Assembly: GCF_055900595.2 (NCBI RefSeq)
Contig: NZ_CM148325.1
Direction: 5' to 3' (one strand)
Length of the DNA: 64,000 nt
Shown here: one piece after another, positions 14,397 through 57,129 of the stretch
Layout: each line of letters starts with the position of its first letter
How positions within the stretch are numbered: the stretch's first letter is position 1
The notes under the pieces: generated by a model
Seen by the model: only the letters and a program-made list of their open reading frames with translations
What the model was told of the DNA's origin: nothing
Databases searched by the model: none
Program-made: the position numbers and the translations under genes

Positions 14397-15830
14397 ATGA
14401 AAGTAACGCTGCCAGAGTTTGAACGTGCAGGAGTGATGGTGGTTGGTGATGTGATGCTGGATCGTTACTGGTACGGTCCCACCAGCCGTATCTCGCCGGA
14501 AGCGCCGGTGCCCGTGGTTAAAGTGAATACCATCGAAGAACGTCCGGGCGGCGCGGCTAACGTGGCGATGAATATCGCTTCTCTCGGTGCTAATGCACGC
14601 CTGGTCGGGTTGACGGGCATTGACGATGCGGCGCGCGCGCTGAGTAAATCTCTGGCCGACGTCAACGTCAAATGCGACTTCGTTTCTGTACCGACGCATC
14701 CGACCATCACCAAATTACGGGTACTTTCCCGCAACCAACAGCTGATCCGTCTGGATTTTGAAGAAGGTTTCGAAGGGGTTGATCCGCAGCCGCTGCACGA
14801 GCGGATTAATCAGGCGCTGAGTTCGATTGGCGCGCTGGTGCTCTCTGACTACGCGAAAGGTGCGCTGGCAAGCGTGCAGCAGATGATCCAACTGGCGCGT
14901 AAAGCGGGCGTTCCGGTGCTGATTGATCCAAAAGGCACCGATTTTGAGCGCTACCGCGGCGCTACGCTGTTAACGCCGAATCTCTCGGAATTTGAAGCTG
15001 TTGTCGGTAAATGTAAGACCGAAGAAGAGATTGTTGAGCGCGGCATGAAACTGATTGCCGATTACGAACTCTCGGCTCTGTTGGTGACCCGTTCCGAACA
15101 AGGGATGTCGCTGCTGCAACCGGGTAAAGAGCCGCTGCATATGCCAACCCAGGCGCAAGAAGTGTATGACGTCACCGGTGCGGGCGATACGGTGATTGGT
15201 GTGCTGGCAGCAACGCTGGCGGCGGGTAATTCGCTGGAAGAAGCCTGCTTCTTTGCCAACGCGGCGGCCGGTGTGGTGGTTGGCAAACTGGGAACATCCA
15301 CGGTTTCGCCGATCGAGCTGGAAAATGCAGTACGTGGACGTGCAGATACCGGCTTTGGTGTGATGACCGAAGAGGAACTGAAGCTTGCTGTAGCGGCGGC
15401 GCGTAAACGCGGTGAAAAAGTGGTGATGACCAATGGCGTCTTCGACATCCTGCACGCCGGGCACGTCTCCTATCTGGCAAATGCCCGCAAACTGGGTGAC
15501 CGCCTGATTGTCGCTGTGAACAGCGATGCCTCCACCAAACGGCTGAAAGGGGATTCCCGCCCCGTTAACCCTCTCGAACAGCGTATGATTGTGCTGGGGG
15601 CACTGGAAGCGGTCGACTGGGTGGTGTCGTTTGAAGAAGACACGCCGCAGCGCTTGATCGCCGGGATCTTGCCAGACCTGCTGGTGAAAGGCGGCGACTA
15701 TAAACCAGAAGAGATTGCCGGGAGTAAAGAAGTCTGGGCCAACGGTGGCGAAGTGTTGGTGCTCAACTTTGAAGACGGTTGCTCAACGACCAACATCATC
15801 AAGAAGATCCAACAGGATAAAAAAGGCTAA
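14397..15830 (+). CDS. hldE: bifunctional D-glycero-beta-D-manno-heptose-7-phosphate kinase / heptose-1-phosphate adenylyltransferase
   Basis: 477-aa [30 protein letters not shown]... Confidence 0.92.
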
Positions 15831-15909
15831 CCGGAAAGCGGTTCACAGATCTCGCTTCGAACCAGGCAGGCCTATTGACGCTGTTGTTTTTTCAACCTAA
15901 AGTAAAGGA

Positions 15910-16058
15910 ACAAGGGTAAGGGAGGATTTCTCCCCCCTCTGAATTGGTTGTTAATAAGCCTGGAAACTTACTAGTAACAACACAATCAGTATGATGACGA
16001 ACTTCATCATAACCCTTTCCTTCTATAAGGCCCCTTCTTCGGGAGGGGCTTTCCCGTT
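15910..16058 (+). ncRNA. sibD: Sib-family antisense antitoxin RNA (predicted), fully overlapping ibs copy 1
   Basis: Plus-strand promoter TTGACG(15875-80)-17nt-TAAAGT(15898-903); hairpin gcccct-tcttcggg-aggggc at 16029-16049 followed by T-rich tract. Ends approximate. Confidence 0.5.
15951..16010 (-). CDS. ibsD: Ibs-family type I toxin, 19 aa (MMKFVIILIVLLLVSFQAY)
   Basis: Minus-strand ATGATG at 16010, stop at 15951-15953; hydrophobic peptide matching the Ibs toxin pattern; symbol by position (ibsD/ibsE assignment uncertain). Confidence 0.7.
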   Translation of the reverse strand: MMKFVIILIVLLLVSFQAY

Positions 16059-16286
16059 TCAGCCCCTTGCTGACTCCCCGATTGTTGATGAGCGCCAGAC
16101 CCCGCGCAATGCTTTCCCAGAGGCAGTTTTGCCTTCCCCGAGCAGTCACGCAAAACGCTGCAACAGCCTGATCATTTGCAGTTTTTTGTGGAACACAGAT
16201 ATAAAAAATCCCCGGTTTTTTGGGCCAGGGATATGTGTTAATGAAACCTTCTTGACGCTGATTTTTTTTCAACCTAAAGTAAAGGA

Positions 16287-16434
16287 ACAAGGGTAAGGGA
16301 GGATTTCTCCCCCCTCTGAATGGCCGTTAATAAGCGTGGAAACTTATCAGTAACAGCACAATCAGTATGATGACGAACTTCATCATAACCCTTTCCTTAT
16401 GTAAGGCCCCTTCCTCGGGAGGGGCTTTCCCGTT
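16287..16434 (+). ncRNA. sibE: Sib-family antisense antitoxin RNA (predicted), copy 2
   Basis: Promoter TTGACG(16252-57)-17nt-TAAAGT(16275-80); terminator hairpin 16405-16425 + T tract. Ends approximate. Confidence 0.5.
16327..16386 (-). CDS. ibsE: Ibs-family type I toxin, 19 aa (MMKFVIILIVLLLISFHAY)
   Basis: Second repeat copy; minus-strand ATGATG at 16386, stop 16327-16329. Confidence 0.7.
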   Translation of the reverse strand: MMKFVIILIVLLLISFHAY

Positions 16435-16624
16435 TCAGCCCCTTGCTGACTCCCCGATTGTTGATGAGCGCCAGACCCCGCGCAATGCTTTCTCTTATGC
16501 AGTTTTCTCTTCCCCGAGTTGGCTCGCAAAACGCTGTAACAACCTGATCATTTGTACTTTTTAGCGGAACGCAGATATAAAAAATCCCCGGCTTTTTGGG
16601 CCAGGGATGTTCATAGTTGAAAAT

Positions 16625-18301
16625 TTATTCTATGTTTTCTGCGACGGGAGTTGTTGAGGTTAAGGGTGAAGTCAATGCCGCCAGTGAGCCGCCTGAAACG
16701 CCAATTTCATTGAGCAAGGAGTCAATCAGCGGTGCCTGTGTGCGGTAAGAAAGGGCGGCAGACAATGCCTGTTCTGCCAGGTTTCCGCCACTAACGCTGC
16801 CTGATGCCGCATCCCCCGCAGCACCACCTCGGTTTAATCCATCGACCTGAATAATCTTGATGCCGTCAATGGACTTCATCGGCTCAACGGATTTCTCTAT
16901 TACTGCAGGTAACGACTGTAATAGCGCCAGTTTGAATTTAAGGCTGGTTTGCTCGTCAGAAAGTACGTTGATAGCGTCGTTCAGCGCACGTTGCGCTTCT
17001 GCTTCCGCCAGGCCTTTTTTGCGTGTTGCTTCGGCTAACTCAACGATCGCCGCCGCCTGCATCTCTGCGGCTTCTTTCTCTGCGGCTTCTTTCTCTGCTT
17101 TCGCCCGCACGGTCAGTTCAACCGCTTTGGTTTCTGCATCCTGCGCGGCAGCGATTAGGGCAACTTGTTTAGCACGATCGGCTTCTGCGGTCTGGCGAGT
17201 GGTTTCTACGTTTTGCTGGGCGCTTACCGCTTCTGCAAGTGCAAGGTTGGCACGCGCTTCCGCTTGTGACTGCTGTTCCGATTTGGCGGCAATAGCGATC
17301 GATTTCGTCTGGTTGGCGATTTCGGTGACCTGCTGCTGTTCGATCTCTTTAATGCGAACTTCACGTTCAGCTTCAACTTTTCTGGAACGGACGACCTGTT
17401 CGCGGTCGATTTCCGTTTCCTGAATCTGTCGTTCAGCCAGAATTCGCGTCTGCTCTGCTTCCCGACGACGCTCGGCCTCAAAAGCCGCAATTTTCGCATT
17501 CTGCTCAGCGGTACGGGTTTTAACCTGCTGCTCCTGCTCAAGCGTCATAAACGCTTCTTGCTGTTCAATCTCCAGCTTCCGCGAAAGCGCATCACGGTTT
17601 TTCTCACGCACCGCAACTTCTACATCCTGTTCAACTTCGTTACGTTCGCGACGACGGCGCTCCGTCTCCTGCGTCAGCTTGGTTAAACCTTCGGCGTCAA
17701 AGGCGTTGTTAGGATTGAAATGTTCCTTCGACGTCTGGTTAAAGTTGGTAAGTGAAACGCTTTCCAGTTCCAGGCCGTTTTTCGACAGATCTTCAGCAAC
17801 GGTATTTTGTACGCCCTGCACGAAGTTCTCGCGGGTATCCTGTAACTCATGCATGGTCATTTGTGCAGCTGTTGCACGGAGGGCATCGACAAATTTATCT
17901 TCAACCAACATACGTAAGTCTTCAGGCGACAGGGTGCGTTGCCCCAGCGTCTGGGCGGCGGTGGCAATACCTTCCACTGACGGTTTTACCCGCACAAAGA
18001 AAGCGACAACGACATCGACGCGCATACGATCTTTCGTAATCAGGCTATCAATGGTTGAGCGGCTGACTTCCAGCTTCAGAGTATTCATATTGATGGGGAT
18101 TATTTCATGAAAGATCGGCATCACGATTGCGCCACCGCTCATTACCACTTTTTGCCCACCTAAACCAGTACGAACAAAAGCTTGCTCTGCCGAAGCGCGA
18201 CGATAGAGCCTGGCGAAAATAATTCCAATAATAAACAGAATGCATACGGCAATAATTGCGGTAAACATCCAGGAGGGCACAGAATTAACAATATCATCCA
18301 T
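16625..18301 (-). CDS. yqiK: SPFH/band-7 (flotillin-like) membrane protein YqiK
   Basis: 558-aa ORF; N-terminal TM, SPFH domain, long Ala/Glu/Gln-rich coiled-coil. Confidence 0.85.
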   Translation of the reverse strand: MDDIVNSVPSWMFTAIIAVCILFIIGIIFARLYRRASAEQAFVRTGLGGQKVVMSGGAIVMPIFHEIIPINMNTLKLEVSRSTIDSLITKDRMRVDVVVAFFVRVKPSVEGIATAAQTLGQRTLSPEDLRMLVEDKFVDALRATAAQMTMHELQDTRENFVQGVQNTVAEDLSKNGLELESVSLTNFNQTSKEHFNPNNAFDAEGLTKLTQETERRRRERNEVEQDVEVAVREKNRDALSRKLEIEQQEAFMTLEQEQQVKTRTAEQNAKIAAFEAERRREAEQTRILAERQIQETEIDREQVVRSRKVEAEREVRIKEIEQQQVTEIANQTKSIAIAAKSEQQSQAEARANLALAEAVSAQQNVETTRQTAEADRAKQVALIAAAQDAETKAVELTVRAKAEKEAAEKEAAEMQAAAIVELAEATRKKGLAEAEAQRALNDAINVLSDEQTSLKFKLALLQSLPAVIEKSVEPMKSIDGIKIIQVDGLNRGGAAGDAASGSVSGGNLAEQALSAALSYRTQAPLIDSLLNEIGVSGGSLAALTSPLTSTTPVAENIE

Positions 18302-19761: not shown

Positions 19762-19883
19762 TGTAGTTTCCCTGTACTGATAGGTGTTGAGTGCCATTGT
19801 AGTGCGATAAGGGTAAGTCATAAACCAGAATTATGTGAAGCTATGCGTTGCTGCCGCTAATCATTAGCGTTATAGTGAATCCG

Positions 19884-20134
19884 CTTATTCTCAGGGCGGG
19901 GCGAAATTCCCCACCGGCGGTAAATCAACTCAGTTGAAAGCCCGCGAGCGCTTTGGGTGCGAACTCAAAGGACAGCAGATCCGGTGTAATTCCGGGGCCG
20001 ACGGTTAGAGTCCGGATGGGAGAGAGTAACGATTCTGTCGGGCATGGACCCGCTCACGTTATTTTGGCTATATGCCGCCACTCCTAAGACTGCCCTGATT
20101 CTGGTAACCATAATTTTAGTGAGGTTTTTTTACC
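19884..20134 (+). promoter_or_regulatory. FMN riboswitch (RFN element) in ribB leader (sroG region)
   Basis: Conserved RFN aptamer motifs (ttctcagggcggggcgaaattcccc...ggacagcagatccggtgtaattccggggccgacggttagagtccggatgggagag); preceded by promoter TTGCTG(19848)-17-TATAGT(19871). Confidence 0.75.
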
Positions 20135-20820: not shown

Positions 20821-21528
20821 AAATATCCTCCGGCATAGCCGGAGGTTTTTCAAATGCGCCTGTAAGGCTCTGTTACCAGCCGCGCCCTAACAGGCGCATA
20901 CGATCTGACATTTGCATTCAACTTCGTTACTTACGGCCCGTAAACGGGCTGCCCGGATATGGAATCGATAACTGCTCCCCCATTTTATCCTCTTCAAGCT
21001 GGTGCTTTATGTAGTCCTGTATCTTCGCCGTGTTCTTACCCACCGTATCGACATAGTACCCTCGGCACCAGAACTCCCTGTTTCTGTATTTGAATTTCAA
21101 ATCCCCAAACTGCTCGTAAAGCATCAGACTGCTTTTCCCTTTCAGATATCCCATAAAGCCGGATACGCTCATTTTGGGTGGGATTTCCACAAGCATATGG
21201 ATATGATCTGCGCAGCACTCTGCTTCCAGAATCCGTACGCTTTTCCACTCACACAGCTTTCTCAAAATACTGCCTATCGCCCTACGCTTCTCTCCGTAAA
21301 ACGCCAGTCTTCGGTATTTCGGCGCAAAAACTATGTGATATTTACAGTTCCAGCGGGTGTGCGCTAAGCTCTTTTCGTCCCCCATTGGGACCCCCTTTTG
21401 ATTTCTTGTTTGACACTTGCAGTTGCCAGACCGCAAGGTGTTTTAACAAATCAAAAGGGGTTTTAATAACTGGCTCAAAGCTGAAAGCTTTCCGGAACCC
21501 CCAGCCTAGCTGGGGGTTTTCTGTGCAC
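20821..21528 (-). mobile_element. IS200 insertion sequence (~708 bp); ends inferred (+/-20 bp)
   Basis: 152-aa IS200 TnpA; left end (high coordinate) inferred from hairpins at 21495-21517 and 21391-21460, which match the recalled IS200 leader positions (nt 12-34 and 69-138). Confidence 0.65.
20927..21385 (-). CDS. tnpA: IS200 transposase TnpA (Y1/HUH)
   Basis: MGDEKSLAHTRWNCKYHIVFAPKYRR...HIHMLVEIPP...; 152 aa from second in-frame ATG. Confidence 0.9.
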   Translation of the reverse strand: MGDEKSLAHTRWNCKYHIVFAPKYRRLAFYGEKRRAIGSILRKLCEWKSVRILEAECCADHIHMLVEIPPKMSVSGFMGYLKGKSSLMLYEQFGDLKFKYRNREFWCRGYYVDTVGKNTAKIQDYIKHQLEEDKMGEQLSIPYPGSPFTGRK

Positions 21529-46492: not shown

Positions 46493-46596
46493 ACGTTCCT
46501 CCTTTATATGAACTCACCGGAGCAGGCTCCGGTGAGGTGTTGTGAACTTAAGTCTGGACGAAATGCCCGAAAACGAAAGTTTGAGGCGTAAAAAGC

Positions 46597-55813: not shown

Positions 55814-57022
55814 TCATAATTTCCCCAAAACGTAACCATGTGTGAATAGATTTTGAGTAAGCAGGGTTGCAGCCACGAGTGAGTCTTCCCTTGTTATTGT
55901 GTAGCCAGAATGCCGCAAAACTTCCATGCCTAAGCGAACTGTTGAGAGTACGTTTCGATTTCTGACTGTGTTAGCCTGGAAGTGCTTGTCCCAACCTTGT
56001 TTCTGAGCATGAACGCCCGCAAGCCAACATGTTAGTTGAAGCATCAGGGCGATTAGCAGCATGATATCAAAACGCTCTGAGCTGCTCGTTCGGCTATGGC
56101 GTAGGCCTAGTCCGTAGGCAGGACTTTTCAAGTCTCGGAAGGTTTCTTCAATCTGCATTCGCTTCGAATAGATATTAACAAGTTGTTTGGGTGTTCGAAT
56201 TTCAACAGGTAAGTTAGTTGCTAGAATCCATGGCTCCTTTGCCGACGCTGAGTAGATTTTAGGTGACGGGTGGTGACAATGAGTCCGTGTCGAGCGCTGA
56301 TTTTTTCGGCCTTTAGAGCGAGATTTATACAATAGAATTTGGCATGAGATTGGATTGCTTTTAGTCAGCCTCTTATAGCCTAAAGTCTTTGAGTGACTAG
56401 ATGACATATCATGTAAGTTGCTGATAGGTTTCCAGTTTTCCGCTCCTAGGTCTGCATATTGTACTTTTCCTCTTACTCGACTTAACCAGTACCAACCCAG
56501 CTTCTCAACGGATTTATACCATGGCACTTTAAAGCCAGCATCACTGACAATGAGCGGTGTGGTGTTACTCGGTAGAATGCTCGCAAGGTCGGCTAGAAAT
56601 TGGTCATGAGCTTTCTTTGAACATTGCTCTGAAAGCGGGAACGCTTTCTCATAAAGAGTAACAGAACGACCGTGTAGTGCGACTGAAGCTCGCAATACCA
56701 TAAGCCGTTTTTGCTCACGGATATCAGACCAGTCAACAAGTACAATGGGCATCGTATTGCCCGAACAGATAAAGCTAGCATGCCAACGGTATACAGCGAG
56801 TCGCTCTTTGTGGAGGTGACGATTACCTAACAATCGGTCGATTCGTTTGATGTTATGTTTTGTTCTCGCTTTGGTTGGCAGGTTACGGCCAAGTTCGGTA
56901 AGAGTGAGAGTTTTACAGTCAAGTAAGGCGTGGCAAGCCAACGTTAAGCTGTTGAGTCGTTTTAAGTGTAATTCGGGGCAGAATTGGTAAAGAGAGTCGT
57001 GTAAAATATCGAGTTCGCACAT
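55814..57022 (-). CDS. tnp: IS10 transposase (IS4 family, DDE)
   Basis: 402-aa ORF MCELDILHDSLYQFCPELHLKRLNSLTLACHALLDCKTLTLTELGRNLPTKARTKHNIKRIDRLLGN... Confidence 0.95.
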   Translation of the reverse strand: MCELDILHDSLYQFCPELHLKRLNSLTLACHALLDCKTLTLTELGRNLPTKARTKHNIKRIDRLLGNRHLHKERLAVYRWHASFICSGNTMPIVLVDWSDIREQKRLMVLRASVALHGRSVTLYEKAFPLSEQCSKKAHDQFLADLASILPSNTTPLIVSDAGFKVPWYKSVEKLGWYWLSRVRGKVQYADLGAENWKPISNLHDMSSSHSKTLGYKRLTKSNPISCQILLYKSRSKGRKNQRSTRTHCHHPSPKIYSASAKEPWILATNLPVEIRTPKQLVNIYSKRMQIEETFRDLKSPAYGLGLRHSRTSSSERFDIMLLIALMLQLTCWLAGVHAQKQGWDKHFQANTVRNRNVLSTVRLGMEVLRHSGYTITREDSLVAATLLTQNLFTHGYVLGKL

Positions 57023-57083
57023 TTTGTTGTCTGATTATTGATTTTTGGCGAAACCATTTGATCATATGACAAGATGTGTATCC
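57015..57083 (+). ncRNA. IS10 RNA-OUT antisense RNA (predicted from IS10 coordinates)
   Basis: Corresponds to IS10 bp 115-47; sequence tcgcacattttgttgtctgattattgatttttggcgaaaccatttgatcatatgacaagatgtgtatcc is antisense to the transposase start; GATC (dam) site in the pIN -10 region. Confidence 0.5.
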
Positions 57084-57129
57084 ACCTTAACTTAATGATT
57101 TTTACCAAAATCATTAGGGGATTCATCAG

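What the first reader, a model, noticed from the sequence alone, without database searches (positions are those of the whole stretch)
15870..16620. Tandem Sib/Ibs type I toxin-antitoxin repeats; 19-aa toxin ORFs missed by the ORF track
Two ~375-bp direct repeats each carry a minus-strand ATGATG ORF of 19 codons (MMKFVIILIVLLLVSFQAY; MMKFVIILIVLLLISFHAY) and, on the plus strand, a near-consensus sigma70 promoter plus terminator for a ~150-nt fully antisense RNA. This matches the SibD/SibE-IbsD/IbsE arrangement described between hldE and yqiK in K-12. The 101-aa and 65-aa plus-strand ORFs in the track are artefacts of the repeat.
Basis: partly seen in the sequence, partly recalled or inferred. 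Interest (0 to 1): 0.5.

Follow-up and report, generated by a model that had tools for sequence, protein, structure and literature searches.

The report
Tandem Sib/Ibs toxin-antitoxin pair

Summary
The observation and the interpretation both hold. Window 15875-16624 contains two direct repeats (period 376/377 nt; 89-97% identical). Each gives a full-length Rfam SIB_RNA hit on the + strand (143 and 147 bits against a gathering score of 56). A profile built from the five K-12 Ibs peptides picks out only these two among 1,199 small ORFs in the window (E about 1e-12). Synteny matches K-12: glnE-hldE-[unit]-[unit]-yqiK-yqiJ. Eight RefSeq E. coli genomes carry an identical locus, and PGAP annotates both ORFs there as Ibs-family toxins. 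Using K-12's curated RNA ends, the Sib RNAs are 15910-16054 (145 nt) and 16287-16430 (144 nt). The ibs promoters and start sites, taken from published primer-extension data, fall at 16109-16074 and 16485-16450 on the - strand. There are four refinements. The hldE-proximal unit sits in the sibE slot. Both peptides are new alleles closer to K-12 IbsD than to IbsE. The sib promoter matches 9 of 12 consensus positions. The Rfam hit coordinates include the promoter and omit the terminator. The 101-aa and 65-aa + strand ORFs do not keep their frame in K-12 and are most likely spurious. Verdict: already known, low interest.

The parts
15875..15909 (+). sib promoter, unit 1 (hldE-proximal; K-12 sibE slot): -35 TTGACG 15875-15880, 17-nt spacer, -10 TAAAGT 15898-15903, ending at -1
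   Evidence: Promoter scan, 9 of 12. It differs by 1 nt (in the -10) from the 35 bp upstream of the K-12 sibE +1. [quoted passage not shown]
15910..16054 (+). Sib antitoxin RNA, unit 1, 145 nt (+1 = A in the context GA-A-CA)
   Evidence: Rfam RF00113 hit at 15875-16025, 142.9 bits. The ends were transferred from the curated K-12 sibE ncRNA feature, and the RNA starts ACAAGGGT and ends GGGGCTTTCC exactly as K-12 SibD/E do. Fold -53.5 kcal/mol, z = -4.95.
15951..16010 (-). ibs toxin ORF, unit 1: MMKFVIILIVLLLVSFQAY plus stop; purine-rich AAGGAAAGGG 3-12 nt upstream of the ATG
   Evidence: Translation. Ibs profile E = 4.2e-13. Annotated as Ibs family toxin WP_072148302.1 in identical genomes. Two residues differ from K-12 IbsD and five from IbsE.
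15957..15979 (+). TRD1-equivalent of Sib unit 1 (loop of the long central hairpin; antisense to ibs codons 11-18)
   Evidence: Columns aligned to SibC +46..+68, which Han et al. 2010 (PMC2943612) defined as TRD1.
16010..16028 (+). TRD2-equivalent of Sib unit 1 (single-stranded junction antisense to the ibs ribosome-binding region)
   Evidence: Columns aligned to SibC +99..+115. Mostly unpaired in the predicted fold: about 9 of its 19 nt form the single-stranded junction, and the rest lie in the closing stem and the base of the terminator stem.
16027..16054 (+). Sib terminator, unit 1: 11-bp hairpin with UUCG loop, then UUUCC
   Evidence: Fold. The K-12 sibE 3' end maps here. Not found by the T-tail-based scan.
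16074..16109 (-). ibs promoter and start site, unit 1: -35 TTGCGC 16109-16104, 17-nt spacer, -10 AACAAT 16086-16081, +1 G at 16074
   Evidence: Placed by homology. The ibsD +1 sequence GTCAGCAG comes from the T7 template primer and primer-extension mapping in PMC2943612. The segment 16055-16109 is 100% identical between the two units.
16208..16232 (-). Duplicated copy of the yqiK terminator hairpin (ATCCCTGG...CCGGGGAT followed by a T run), upstream of the unit-1 ibs promoter and downstream of the unit-2 ibs gene
   Evidence: Homologous to 16584-16608. Present only in D/E-type units and absent from K-12 sibA/B/C units. Any role as an insulator or as an ibs unit-2 terminator is inferred.
16252..16286 (+). 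sib promoter, unit 2 (yqiK-proximal; K-12 sibD slot): TTGACG-17-TAAAGT
   Evidence: Promoter scan. All 35 bp are identical to the K-12 sibD minimal promoter, which was characterised in PMC12956327.
16287..16430 (+). Sib antitoxin RNA, unit 2, 144 nt
   Evidence: Rfam RF00113 hit at 16252-16401, 147.4 bits. Ends transferred from the K-12 sibD ncRNA feature. Fold -53.7 kcal/mol, z = -4.82.
16327..16386 (-). ibs toxin ORF, unit 2: MMKFVIILIVLLLISFHAY plus stop
   Evidence: Translation. Ibs profile E = 3.6e-12. Annotated as Ibs family toxin WP_100733770.1.
16333..16355 (+). TRD1-equivalent of Sib unit 2
   Evidence: Alignment to SibC +46..+68.
16386..16404 (+). TRD2-equivalent of Sib unit 2
   Evidence: Alignment to SibC +99..+115.
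16450..16485 (-). ibs promoter and start site, unit 2: -35 TTGCGC 16485-16480, -10 AACAAT 16462-16457, +1 G at 16450
   Evidence: Homology with the mapped K-12 ibsD start. Identical to unit 1 over this segment.
16584..16608 (-). yqiK intrinsic terminator (9-bp stem followed by a T run), directly after the yqiK stop at 16625 and upstream of the unit-2 ibs promoter
   Evidence: Terminator scan. yqiK ORF 16625-18301 on the - strand.

Best explanation
The hldE-yqiK spacer carries two tandem Sib/Ibs type I toxin-antitoxin modules of the SibD/SibE subfamily. In each unit a weak promoter on the - strand (TTGCGC-17-AACAAT) makes an ibs mRNA of about 160 nt that encodes a 19-residue hydrophobic peptide. 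Overproduced Ibs peptides insert into the inner membrane, depolarise it and stop growth. On the + strand a stronger promoter (TTGACG-17-TAAAGT) makes a structured Sib RNA of 144-145 nt. That RNA spans the whole ibs ribosome-binding site and ORF and ends at its own hairpin terminator. Sib first contacts its own unit's ibs mRNA through two exposed segments: TRD1, a hairpin loop antisense to the 3' part of the ORF, and TRD2, a single-stranded junction antisense to the translation-initiation region. Pairing then spreads along the RNA, translation is blocked and the mRNA is degraded. The two units differ in the TRD segments, so each Sib is expected to control mainly its own ibs. What was shown here: the sequence features, the homology, the synteny, the predicted folds and the mapping of the RNA ends. 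What is inferred from K-12 experiments: expression, toxicity, cognate-only repression, and probable NAD capping of the +1A Sib transcripts.
For: Two full-length Rfam SIB_RNA matches at 143-147 bits, gathering score 56. Two 19-codon ORFs inside them on the opposite strand, singled out by a K-12 Ibs profile among 1,199 small ORFs. End-to-end alignment to the K-12 sibE/sibD spacer with the same flanking genes. The Sib RNAs are 89-94% identical to K-12 SibD/E and 73-78% identical to SibA/B/C, with identical 5' and 3' ends. The unit-2 promoter is identical over 35 bp to the experimentally defined sibD minimal promoter, and G-2 A-1 A+1 C+2 A+3 are preserved in both units. Both Sib RNAs fold far better than shuffles (z about -4.9) into the closing stem, 5' hairpin, long central hairpin, start-codon hairpin, single-stranded junction and terminator described for SibC. 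The ibs promoter and +1 are conserved and 100% identical between units. PGAP annotates both toxins in eight identical genomes. Mechanism from the literature: PMC2943612 for TRD1/TRD2, cognate specificity and mRNA degradation; PMC8309996 for IbsC membrane depolarisation and loss of viability.
Against: Nothing was measured for these particular alleles. The peptides differ from the tested K-12 Ibs peptides at 2-5 of 19 positions, including F4 and Q17/H17. Differences between the two units fall in TRD columns only modestly more often than elsewhere (5 of 42 columns against 6 of 105; Fisher p = 0.30), so cognate discrimination is plausible but is not demonstrated by the sequence. The NCBIfam scan of the peptides, padded to 20 aa, returned no family. 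The terminator tail is poor in U and was missed by the scan.
Confidence: 0.96

Rival explanations
1. The plus-strand ORFs of 101 aa (15991-16296) and 65 aa (16367-16564), or the 132-aa minus-strand ORF (15892-16290), are the real genes, and the small RNA and peptide features are secondary.
For: The ORFs exist. One RefSeq genome with an identical locus annotates the 101-aa ORF as hypothetical protein WP_077757011.1.
Against: The frames are not conserved. In K-12 the same ATGATG starts give 59 and 27 aa with different sequence after indels, and the 132-aa frame is broken by stops. There is no NCBIfam hit at E <= 1. Seven of eight identical genomes and K-12 do not annotate them. The ORFs start inside the Sib RNA and run through its terminator and the ibs promoter.
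Confidence: 0.02
2. One or both units are decaying relics of a duplication: the sequence is still recognisable but the toxin or antitoxin is no longer functional.
For: The peptides carry substitutions not seen in the K-12 paralogues (F4, Q17, H17). Some E. coli genomes keep only one unit at this locus, so the second copy is dispensable. The review states that C-terminal residues matter for IbsC toxicity.
Against: Both ORFs are intact with ATGATG starts and a ribosome-binding sequence. Both sib promoters, both +1A contexts, both terminators and both ibs promoters are intact. The same peptide alleles recur in other genomes that differ elsewhere in the locus, which suggests they are maintained.
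Confidence: 0.05
3. The repeats belong to an unrelated intergenic repeat family (for example REP/BIME or a miniature transposon) that resembles Sib only by chance.
For: None beyond their being intergenic direct repeats.
Against: Full-length covariance-model hits at E about 1e-30. No inverted repeats were found. The alignment to K-12 sibD/sibE is collinear with the same flanking genes.
Confidence: 0.005

Closest known systems
E. coli K-12 sibD/ibsD and sibE/ibsE (b4447/b4664, b4611/b4666)
   Same: Same chromosomal slot (glnE-hldE | unit | unit | yqiK-yqiJ), same tandem arrangement and period, and the same RNA 5' and 3' ends. The sibD minimal promoter is identical in unit 2. The ibs promoter and +1 are the same, and the Sib RNAs are 89-94% identical.
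   Different: The spacer is 92.4% identical overall, against 96.4% for hldE. The peptides are different alleles...VSFQAY and ...ISFHAY with F4, against K-12 ...VSFAAY (IbsD) and ...LSFPTY (IbsE) with L4. The TRD1 and TRD2 sequences differ from both K-12 copies. By sequence, both window units are nearer K-12 D than E, so the D/E names transfer only by position.
E. coli K-12 sibC/ibsC (the experimentally dissected member)
   Same: Same architecture: an sRNA that fully overlaps a 19-codon ORF, the same stem layout, TRD1 in the loop of the long hairpin and TRD2 in the junction before the terminator.
   Different: Only 73-75% RNA identity. It sits at a different locus (fau-serA), as a single copy, with an unrelated sequence upstream of the ibs promoter.
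Other chromosomal type I toxin-antitoxin repeats of E. coli (Ldr/Rdl long direct repeats, Hok/Sok, ShoB/OhsC, Zor/Orz)
   Same: A small hydrophobic membrane toxin repressed by an antisense RNA, often present as tandem repeats (literature cited).
   Different: In Sib/Ibs the antisense RNA covers the entire ORF and ribosome-binding site rather than only part of the mRNA, and the toxin is far shorter at 18-19 aa. Rfam detected no sequence relationship to those families.

Membership tests
Sib antitoxin RNA (Rfam RF00113 SIB_RNA) | Sequence and secondary structure match the family covariance model above the curated gathering score | tested here: met
   147.4 and 142.9 bits against a gathering score of 56; model positions 1-147 of 147, not truncated.
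Sib antitoxin RNA (Rfam RF00113 SIB_RNA) | Own promoter and intrinsic terminator that define an RNA of about 140 nt | tested here: met
   TTGACG-17-TAAAGT, identical or 1 nt different from the K-12 sibD/sibE promoters. The terminator hairpin is predicted. Curated K-12 ends map to RNAs of 145 and 144 nt. Transcription itself was not observed.
Sib antitoxin RNA (Rfam RF00113 SIB_RNA) | Two target-recognition domains (TRD1, TRD2) that vary between paralogues and confer cognate specificity | tested here: inconclusive
   Both TRD-equivalent segments are present and differ between the two units (3 and 2 differences). Enrichment over the rest of the RNA is not significant (5 of 42 against 6 of 105; p = 0.30). 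Specificity needs an experiment.
Ibs type I toxin | An 18-19-codon, highly hydrophobic ORF on the strand opposite sib and lying wholly inside it | tested here: met
   ORFs 15951-16010 and 16327-16386 (-) lie inside Sib 15910-16054 and 16287-16430 (+).
Ibs type I toxin | Sequence homology to the characterised Ibs peptides | tested here: met
   A profile of K-12 IbsA-E gives E = 4e-13 and 4e-12, the only two hits among 1,199 small ORFs. Identity to IbsD is 17 of 19 and 16 of 19. RefSeq names the identical proteins Ibs family toxins.
Ibs type I toxin | Match to a curated NCBIfam or Pfam family model | tested here: inconclusive
   The NCBIfam scan of the peptides, extended by one upstream codon to reach the 20-aa minimum, returned nothing at E <= 1. 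The peptides are too short for this tool and for profile_search, which has a 30-aa minimum.
Ibs type I toxin | Overexpression is toxic (membrane depolarisation, growth arrest) and is relieved by the cognate Sib | not testable with these tools
   Known for K-12 IbsC and others from the literature. Not measured for these alleles.
sibD/sibE locus of E. coli | Tandem pair between hldE and yqiK | tested here: met
   hldE ORF 14397-15830 (+) and yqiK ORF 16625-18301 (-) flank the repeats. The gene order is the same in K-12 MG1655, JM109 and the identical genome.

The most novel reading that the evidence does not exclude
The hldE-yqiK locus may act as a polymorphic two-slot cassette system. A small pool of TRD1/C-terminal alleles (PTY, QAY, HAY, AAY, ATY) appears to be shuffled between slots and lineages by recombination or gene conversion, under selection that keeps the two resident Sib/ibs pairs from cross-reacting. 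On this reading the amino-acid variation at Ibs residues 17-18 is driven by RNA-level discrimination rather than by peptide function. The window's QAY + HAY combination, with F4 in both copies, would then be an untested specificity pair.
Probability: 0.2. Interest if true: 0.3.

Novelty: already known. Interest (0 to 1): 0.08.

Why it matters
It matters little beyond correct annotation. It confirms that two real 19-codon toxin genes and two antisense RNA genes lie in a spacer where length-limited ORF callers see nothing, or see spurious 65-132-aa ORFs. One RefSeq genome does carry such a spurious 'hypothetical protein'. The locus also gives two natural Sib/Ibs alleles (QAY and HAY types, both with F4). 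These could serve in experiments on how nearly identical cis-antisense pairs avoid cross-talk, but the system, its location and its mechanism are already described for E. coli K-12.

Tried and rejected
(1) I scanned the peptides, padded to 20 aa, against NCBIfam and found no hit. I treat this as a length limitation, not as evidence against membership, and replaced it with a custom profile of the five K-12 Ibs peptides searched against all small ORFs in the window.

(2) I tested whether the differences between the two units concentrate in the TRD1/TRD2 columns. The trend is there but is not significant (p = 0.30). Only the K-12 D-versus-E comparison reaches p = 0.035.

(3) I asked whether the roughly 140 bp of each unit beyond the ibs promoter (16110-16251) carries a family-wide conserved element. 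It does not. It is the least conserved part between the two units (79%) and does not align to the K-12 sibA/B/C units. Its one clear feature is a duplicated yqiK terminator hairpin.

(4) The simple terminator scan did not find the Sib terminators because their tails are poor in T, so I used the fold and the K-12 3' ends instead.

(5) A third promoter-like hit at 16344-16371 (+) lies inside unit 2 only and has no counterpart in unit 1. I regard it as chance.

(6) The original description (Fozo et al. 2008, PMC2597788) is not held in the library. What it reports is cited here through PMC2943612 and PMC8309996.

(7) I considered the plus-strand ORFs as genes and rejected them.

Full report
**What is in the sequence.** The spacer between a 477-aa ORF ending at 15830 (+) and a 558-aa ORF ending at 16625 (-) contains two direct repeats in register. 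These are 15875-15944/16252-16321 (97% identical) and 15945-16244/16321-16620 (89%), with a period of 377/376 nt and no inverted repeats. The ORF lister has a 20-aa floor and does not report them.

**It is not chance.** An Rfam scan of the whole window gives two full-length SIB_RNA (RF00113) hits on the + strand, at 16252-16401 (147.4 bits) and 15875-16025 (142.9 bits). The gathering score is 56 and the E-values are about 1e-30. I built a profile from the five K-12 Ibs peptides and searched all 1,199 ORFs of 10-60 aa in the six frames of the window. Only the two candidate ORFs scored (E = 4e-13 and 4e-12), and the next best had E about 2.

**Identity of the locus.**
- The 794-bp spacer matches 5,425 of 5,426 complete E. 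coli genomes. Eight are 100% identical and most are 90-95% identical.
- In an identical genome the gene order is glnE-hldE-[Ibs toxin]-[Ibs toxin]-yqiK-yqiJ-glgS, and PGAP names both 60-nt CDSs 'type I toxin-antitoxin system Ibs family toxin' (WP_072148302.1, WP_100733770.1).
- K-12 has the same order. The hldE-proximal gene is ibsE/sibE and the yqiK-proximal gene is ibsD/sibD.
- The window aligns to the K-12 spacer end to end at 92.4% identity. The flanking genes are 96.4% (hldE), 95.5% (glnE 3' part) and 93.3% (yqiK) identical. The window therefore comes from an E. coli lineage fairly distant from K-12, and the spacer is only a little more diverged than its flanks.

**Exact anatomy.**
- MG1655 carries curated ncRNA features for sibD (145 nt) and sibE (144 nt). 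Transferring those ends gives Sib RNAs at 15910-16054 (145 nt) and 16287-16430 (144 nt). Both begin ACAAGGGT and end GGGGCTTTCC, exactly like K-12 SibD/E.
- The +1 A sits in the context G-2 A-1 A+1 C+2 A+3, the context reported for sibD in PMC12956327.
- The 35 bp upstream are TTGACG-17-TAAAGT, 9 of 12 consensus matches. Unit 2 is identical to the K-12 sibD minimal promoter. Unit 1 differs from K-12 sibE at one position in the -10.
- The Rfam model's first 35 positions are therefore promoter, and the model stops before the terminator. This is why the Rfam coordinates are offset from the RNA.
- Both RNAs fold much better than shuffled controls (-53.5 and -53.7 kcal/mol; z = -4.95 and -4.82). 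The fold has a closing stem, a 5' hairpin, a long central hairpin, a hairpin formed by AUGAUGA/UCAUCAU (the complement of the ibs start), a single-stranded junction and an 11-bp terminator hairpin. This matches the layout described for SibC.
- Each ibs ORF lies wholly inside its Sib RNA.

**ibs promoters.** Han et al. (PMC2943612) mapped the ibsD start by primer extension, and their T7 template primer gives the +1 sequence GTCAGCAG. The same sequence places the ibs starts at 16074 and 16450 (-), 20 nt beyond each Sib 3' end. Upstream of each lies -10 AACAAT and -35 TTGCGC with a 17-nt spacer. This 55-nt segment (16055-16109) is 100% identical between the two units, whereas the next 142 nt are only 79% identical. 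The predicted ibs mRNA (16074 to 15910, -) is also strongly structured (z = -4.2), with the start codons held in a hairpin.

**Relationship to the K-12 family.**
- The two window Sib RNAs are 89-94% identical to K-12 SibD/E and 73-78% identical to SibA/B/C.
- By sequence, both are closer to K-12 D than to E. At the peptide level, unit 1 differs from IbsD at 2 residues (L4F, A17Q) and from IbsE at 5. Unit 2 differs from IbsD at 3 (L4F, V14I, A17H) and from IbsE at 5. The D/E names therefore transfer only by position.
- Alignment of full units shows that family-wide conservation runs from the sib -35 to about the ibs +1. Beyond that, the A/B, C and D/E types are unrelated.
- The D/E-type unit includes a minus-strand hairpin followed by a T run. 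At 16608-16584 this is the yqiK terminator, and at 16232-16208 it is a duplicated copy. This indicates that the duplication arose in place. Each ibs promoter is thus preceded by a terminator, which I infer insulates the toxin gene from read-through.

**Mechanism (inferred from K-12 work).**
- Sib RNAs are constitutively made and repress the cognate ibs mRNA.
- SibC uses TRD1 (+46..+68, hairpin loop, target inside the ORF) and TRD2 (+99..+115, junction, target in the initiation region). Pairing then spreads and the mRNA is degraded.
- Non-cognate Sib RNAs do not repress, and swapping TRDs swaps specificity.
- Overproduced IbsC depolarises the membrane within minutes and kills. A preprint reports that Salmonella IbsA inhibits the Fo sector of ATP synthase.
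- In the window the TRD-equivalent segments are 15957-15979/16010-16028 and 16333-16355/16386-16404. They differ between units at 3 and 2 positions. This enrichment over the rest of the RNA is not significant (5 of 42 columns against 6 of 105; p = 0.30), so discrimination is plausible but unproven.

**The larger ORFs.**
- The plus-strand 101-aa and 65-aa ORFs start at the ATGATG that is the reverse complement of the ibs start hairpin. They run through the Sib terminator and the ibs promoter.
- In K-12 the corresponding ORFs are 59 and 27 aa with shifted frames, and the 132-aa minus-strand ORF is broken.
- None of them hits NCBIfam.
- One of the eight identical genomes nevertheless annotates the 101-aa ORF as a hypothetical protein.

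**Diversity.** In five further genomes the two slots carry different combinations of C-terminal/TRD1 alleles. PTY is hldE-proximal in K-12 and R32_14_1F but yqiK-proximal in 2013C-4282, and QAY and HAY recur. One genome has a single unit. This suggests recombination among units, but the sample is too small to test.

**Verdict.** The feature is the known, already annotated sibD/sibE-ibsD/ibsE locus in a non-K-12 allele. Novelty: already known. Interest: low.

Noticed in passing
window 15875-15909 and 16252-16286 versus the Rfam hits 15875-16025 and 16252-16401: Positions 1-35 of the Rfam SIB_RNA model correspond to the sib promoter (-35 to -1), and the model ends before the terminator. Rfam hit coordinates are therefore shifted about 35 nt upstream and about 29 nt short of the curated K-12 RNA ends.
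   Followed up: yes
window 16208-16232 (-) and 16584-16608 (-): The D/E-type repeat unit contains a copy of the yqiK intrinsic terminator hairpin. It is absent from the K-12 sibA/B/C units, which implies the tandem duplication arose in situ and leaves a terminator upstream of each ibs promoter.
   Followed up: partly
L007, L008, L009, L010 (E. coli R32_14_1F, 2013C-4282, N3, KOr021) compared with window 15951-16010 and 16327-16386: Ibs C-terminal/TRD1 alleles (PTY, QAY, HAY, AAY, ATY) occupy different slots in different genomes, and KOr021 has only one unit at this locus. Both window copies share F4 where both K-12 copies have L4, which could reflect gene conversion or shared ancestry.
   Followed up: partly
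L006 461-766 (+), equivalent to window 15991-16296: RefSeq genome E200086 annotates the 101-aa plus-strand ORF as hypothetical protein WP_077757011.1. Seven other genomes with the identical sequence do not.
   Followed up: yes
window 15829-15843 (-): A terminator-like hairpin with a T run on the minus strand overlaps the hldE stop codon. It could end ibs unit-1 transcripts before they run antisense into hldE.
   Followed up: no
window 55814-57084: A 402-aa IS4-family transposase ORF (NF033591, 402 bits) lies on the minus strand, with an Rfam RNA-OUT hit (97 bits) overlapping its 5' end on the plus strand. This looks like an IS10-type insertion sequence.
   Followed up: partly
window 19883-20031 (+), 21395-21518 (-), 46531-46594 (-): Other Rfam hits above the gathering score: FMN riboswitch (121 bits), STnc490 Hfq-binding sRNA (146 bits) and ES173 sRNA (99 bits).
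   Followed up: no
window 16625-18301 (-): yqiK is 558 aa here against 553 aa in K-12, because of a 15-nt indel in the alanine/glutamate-rich repeat region. The flanking genes are only 93-96% identical to K-12, and just 8 of 5,426 complete E. coli genomes carry this spacer allele, so the window comes from a minority lineage.
   Followed up: partly
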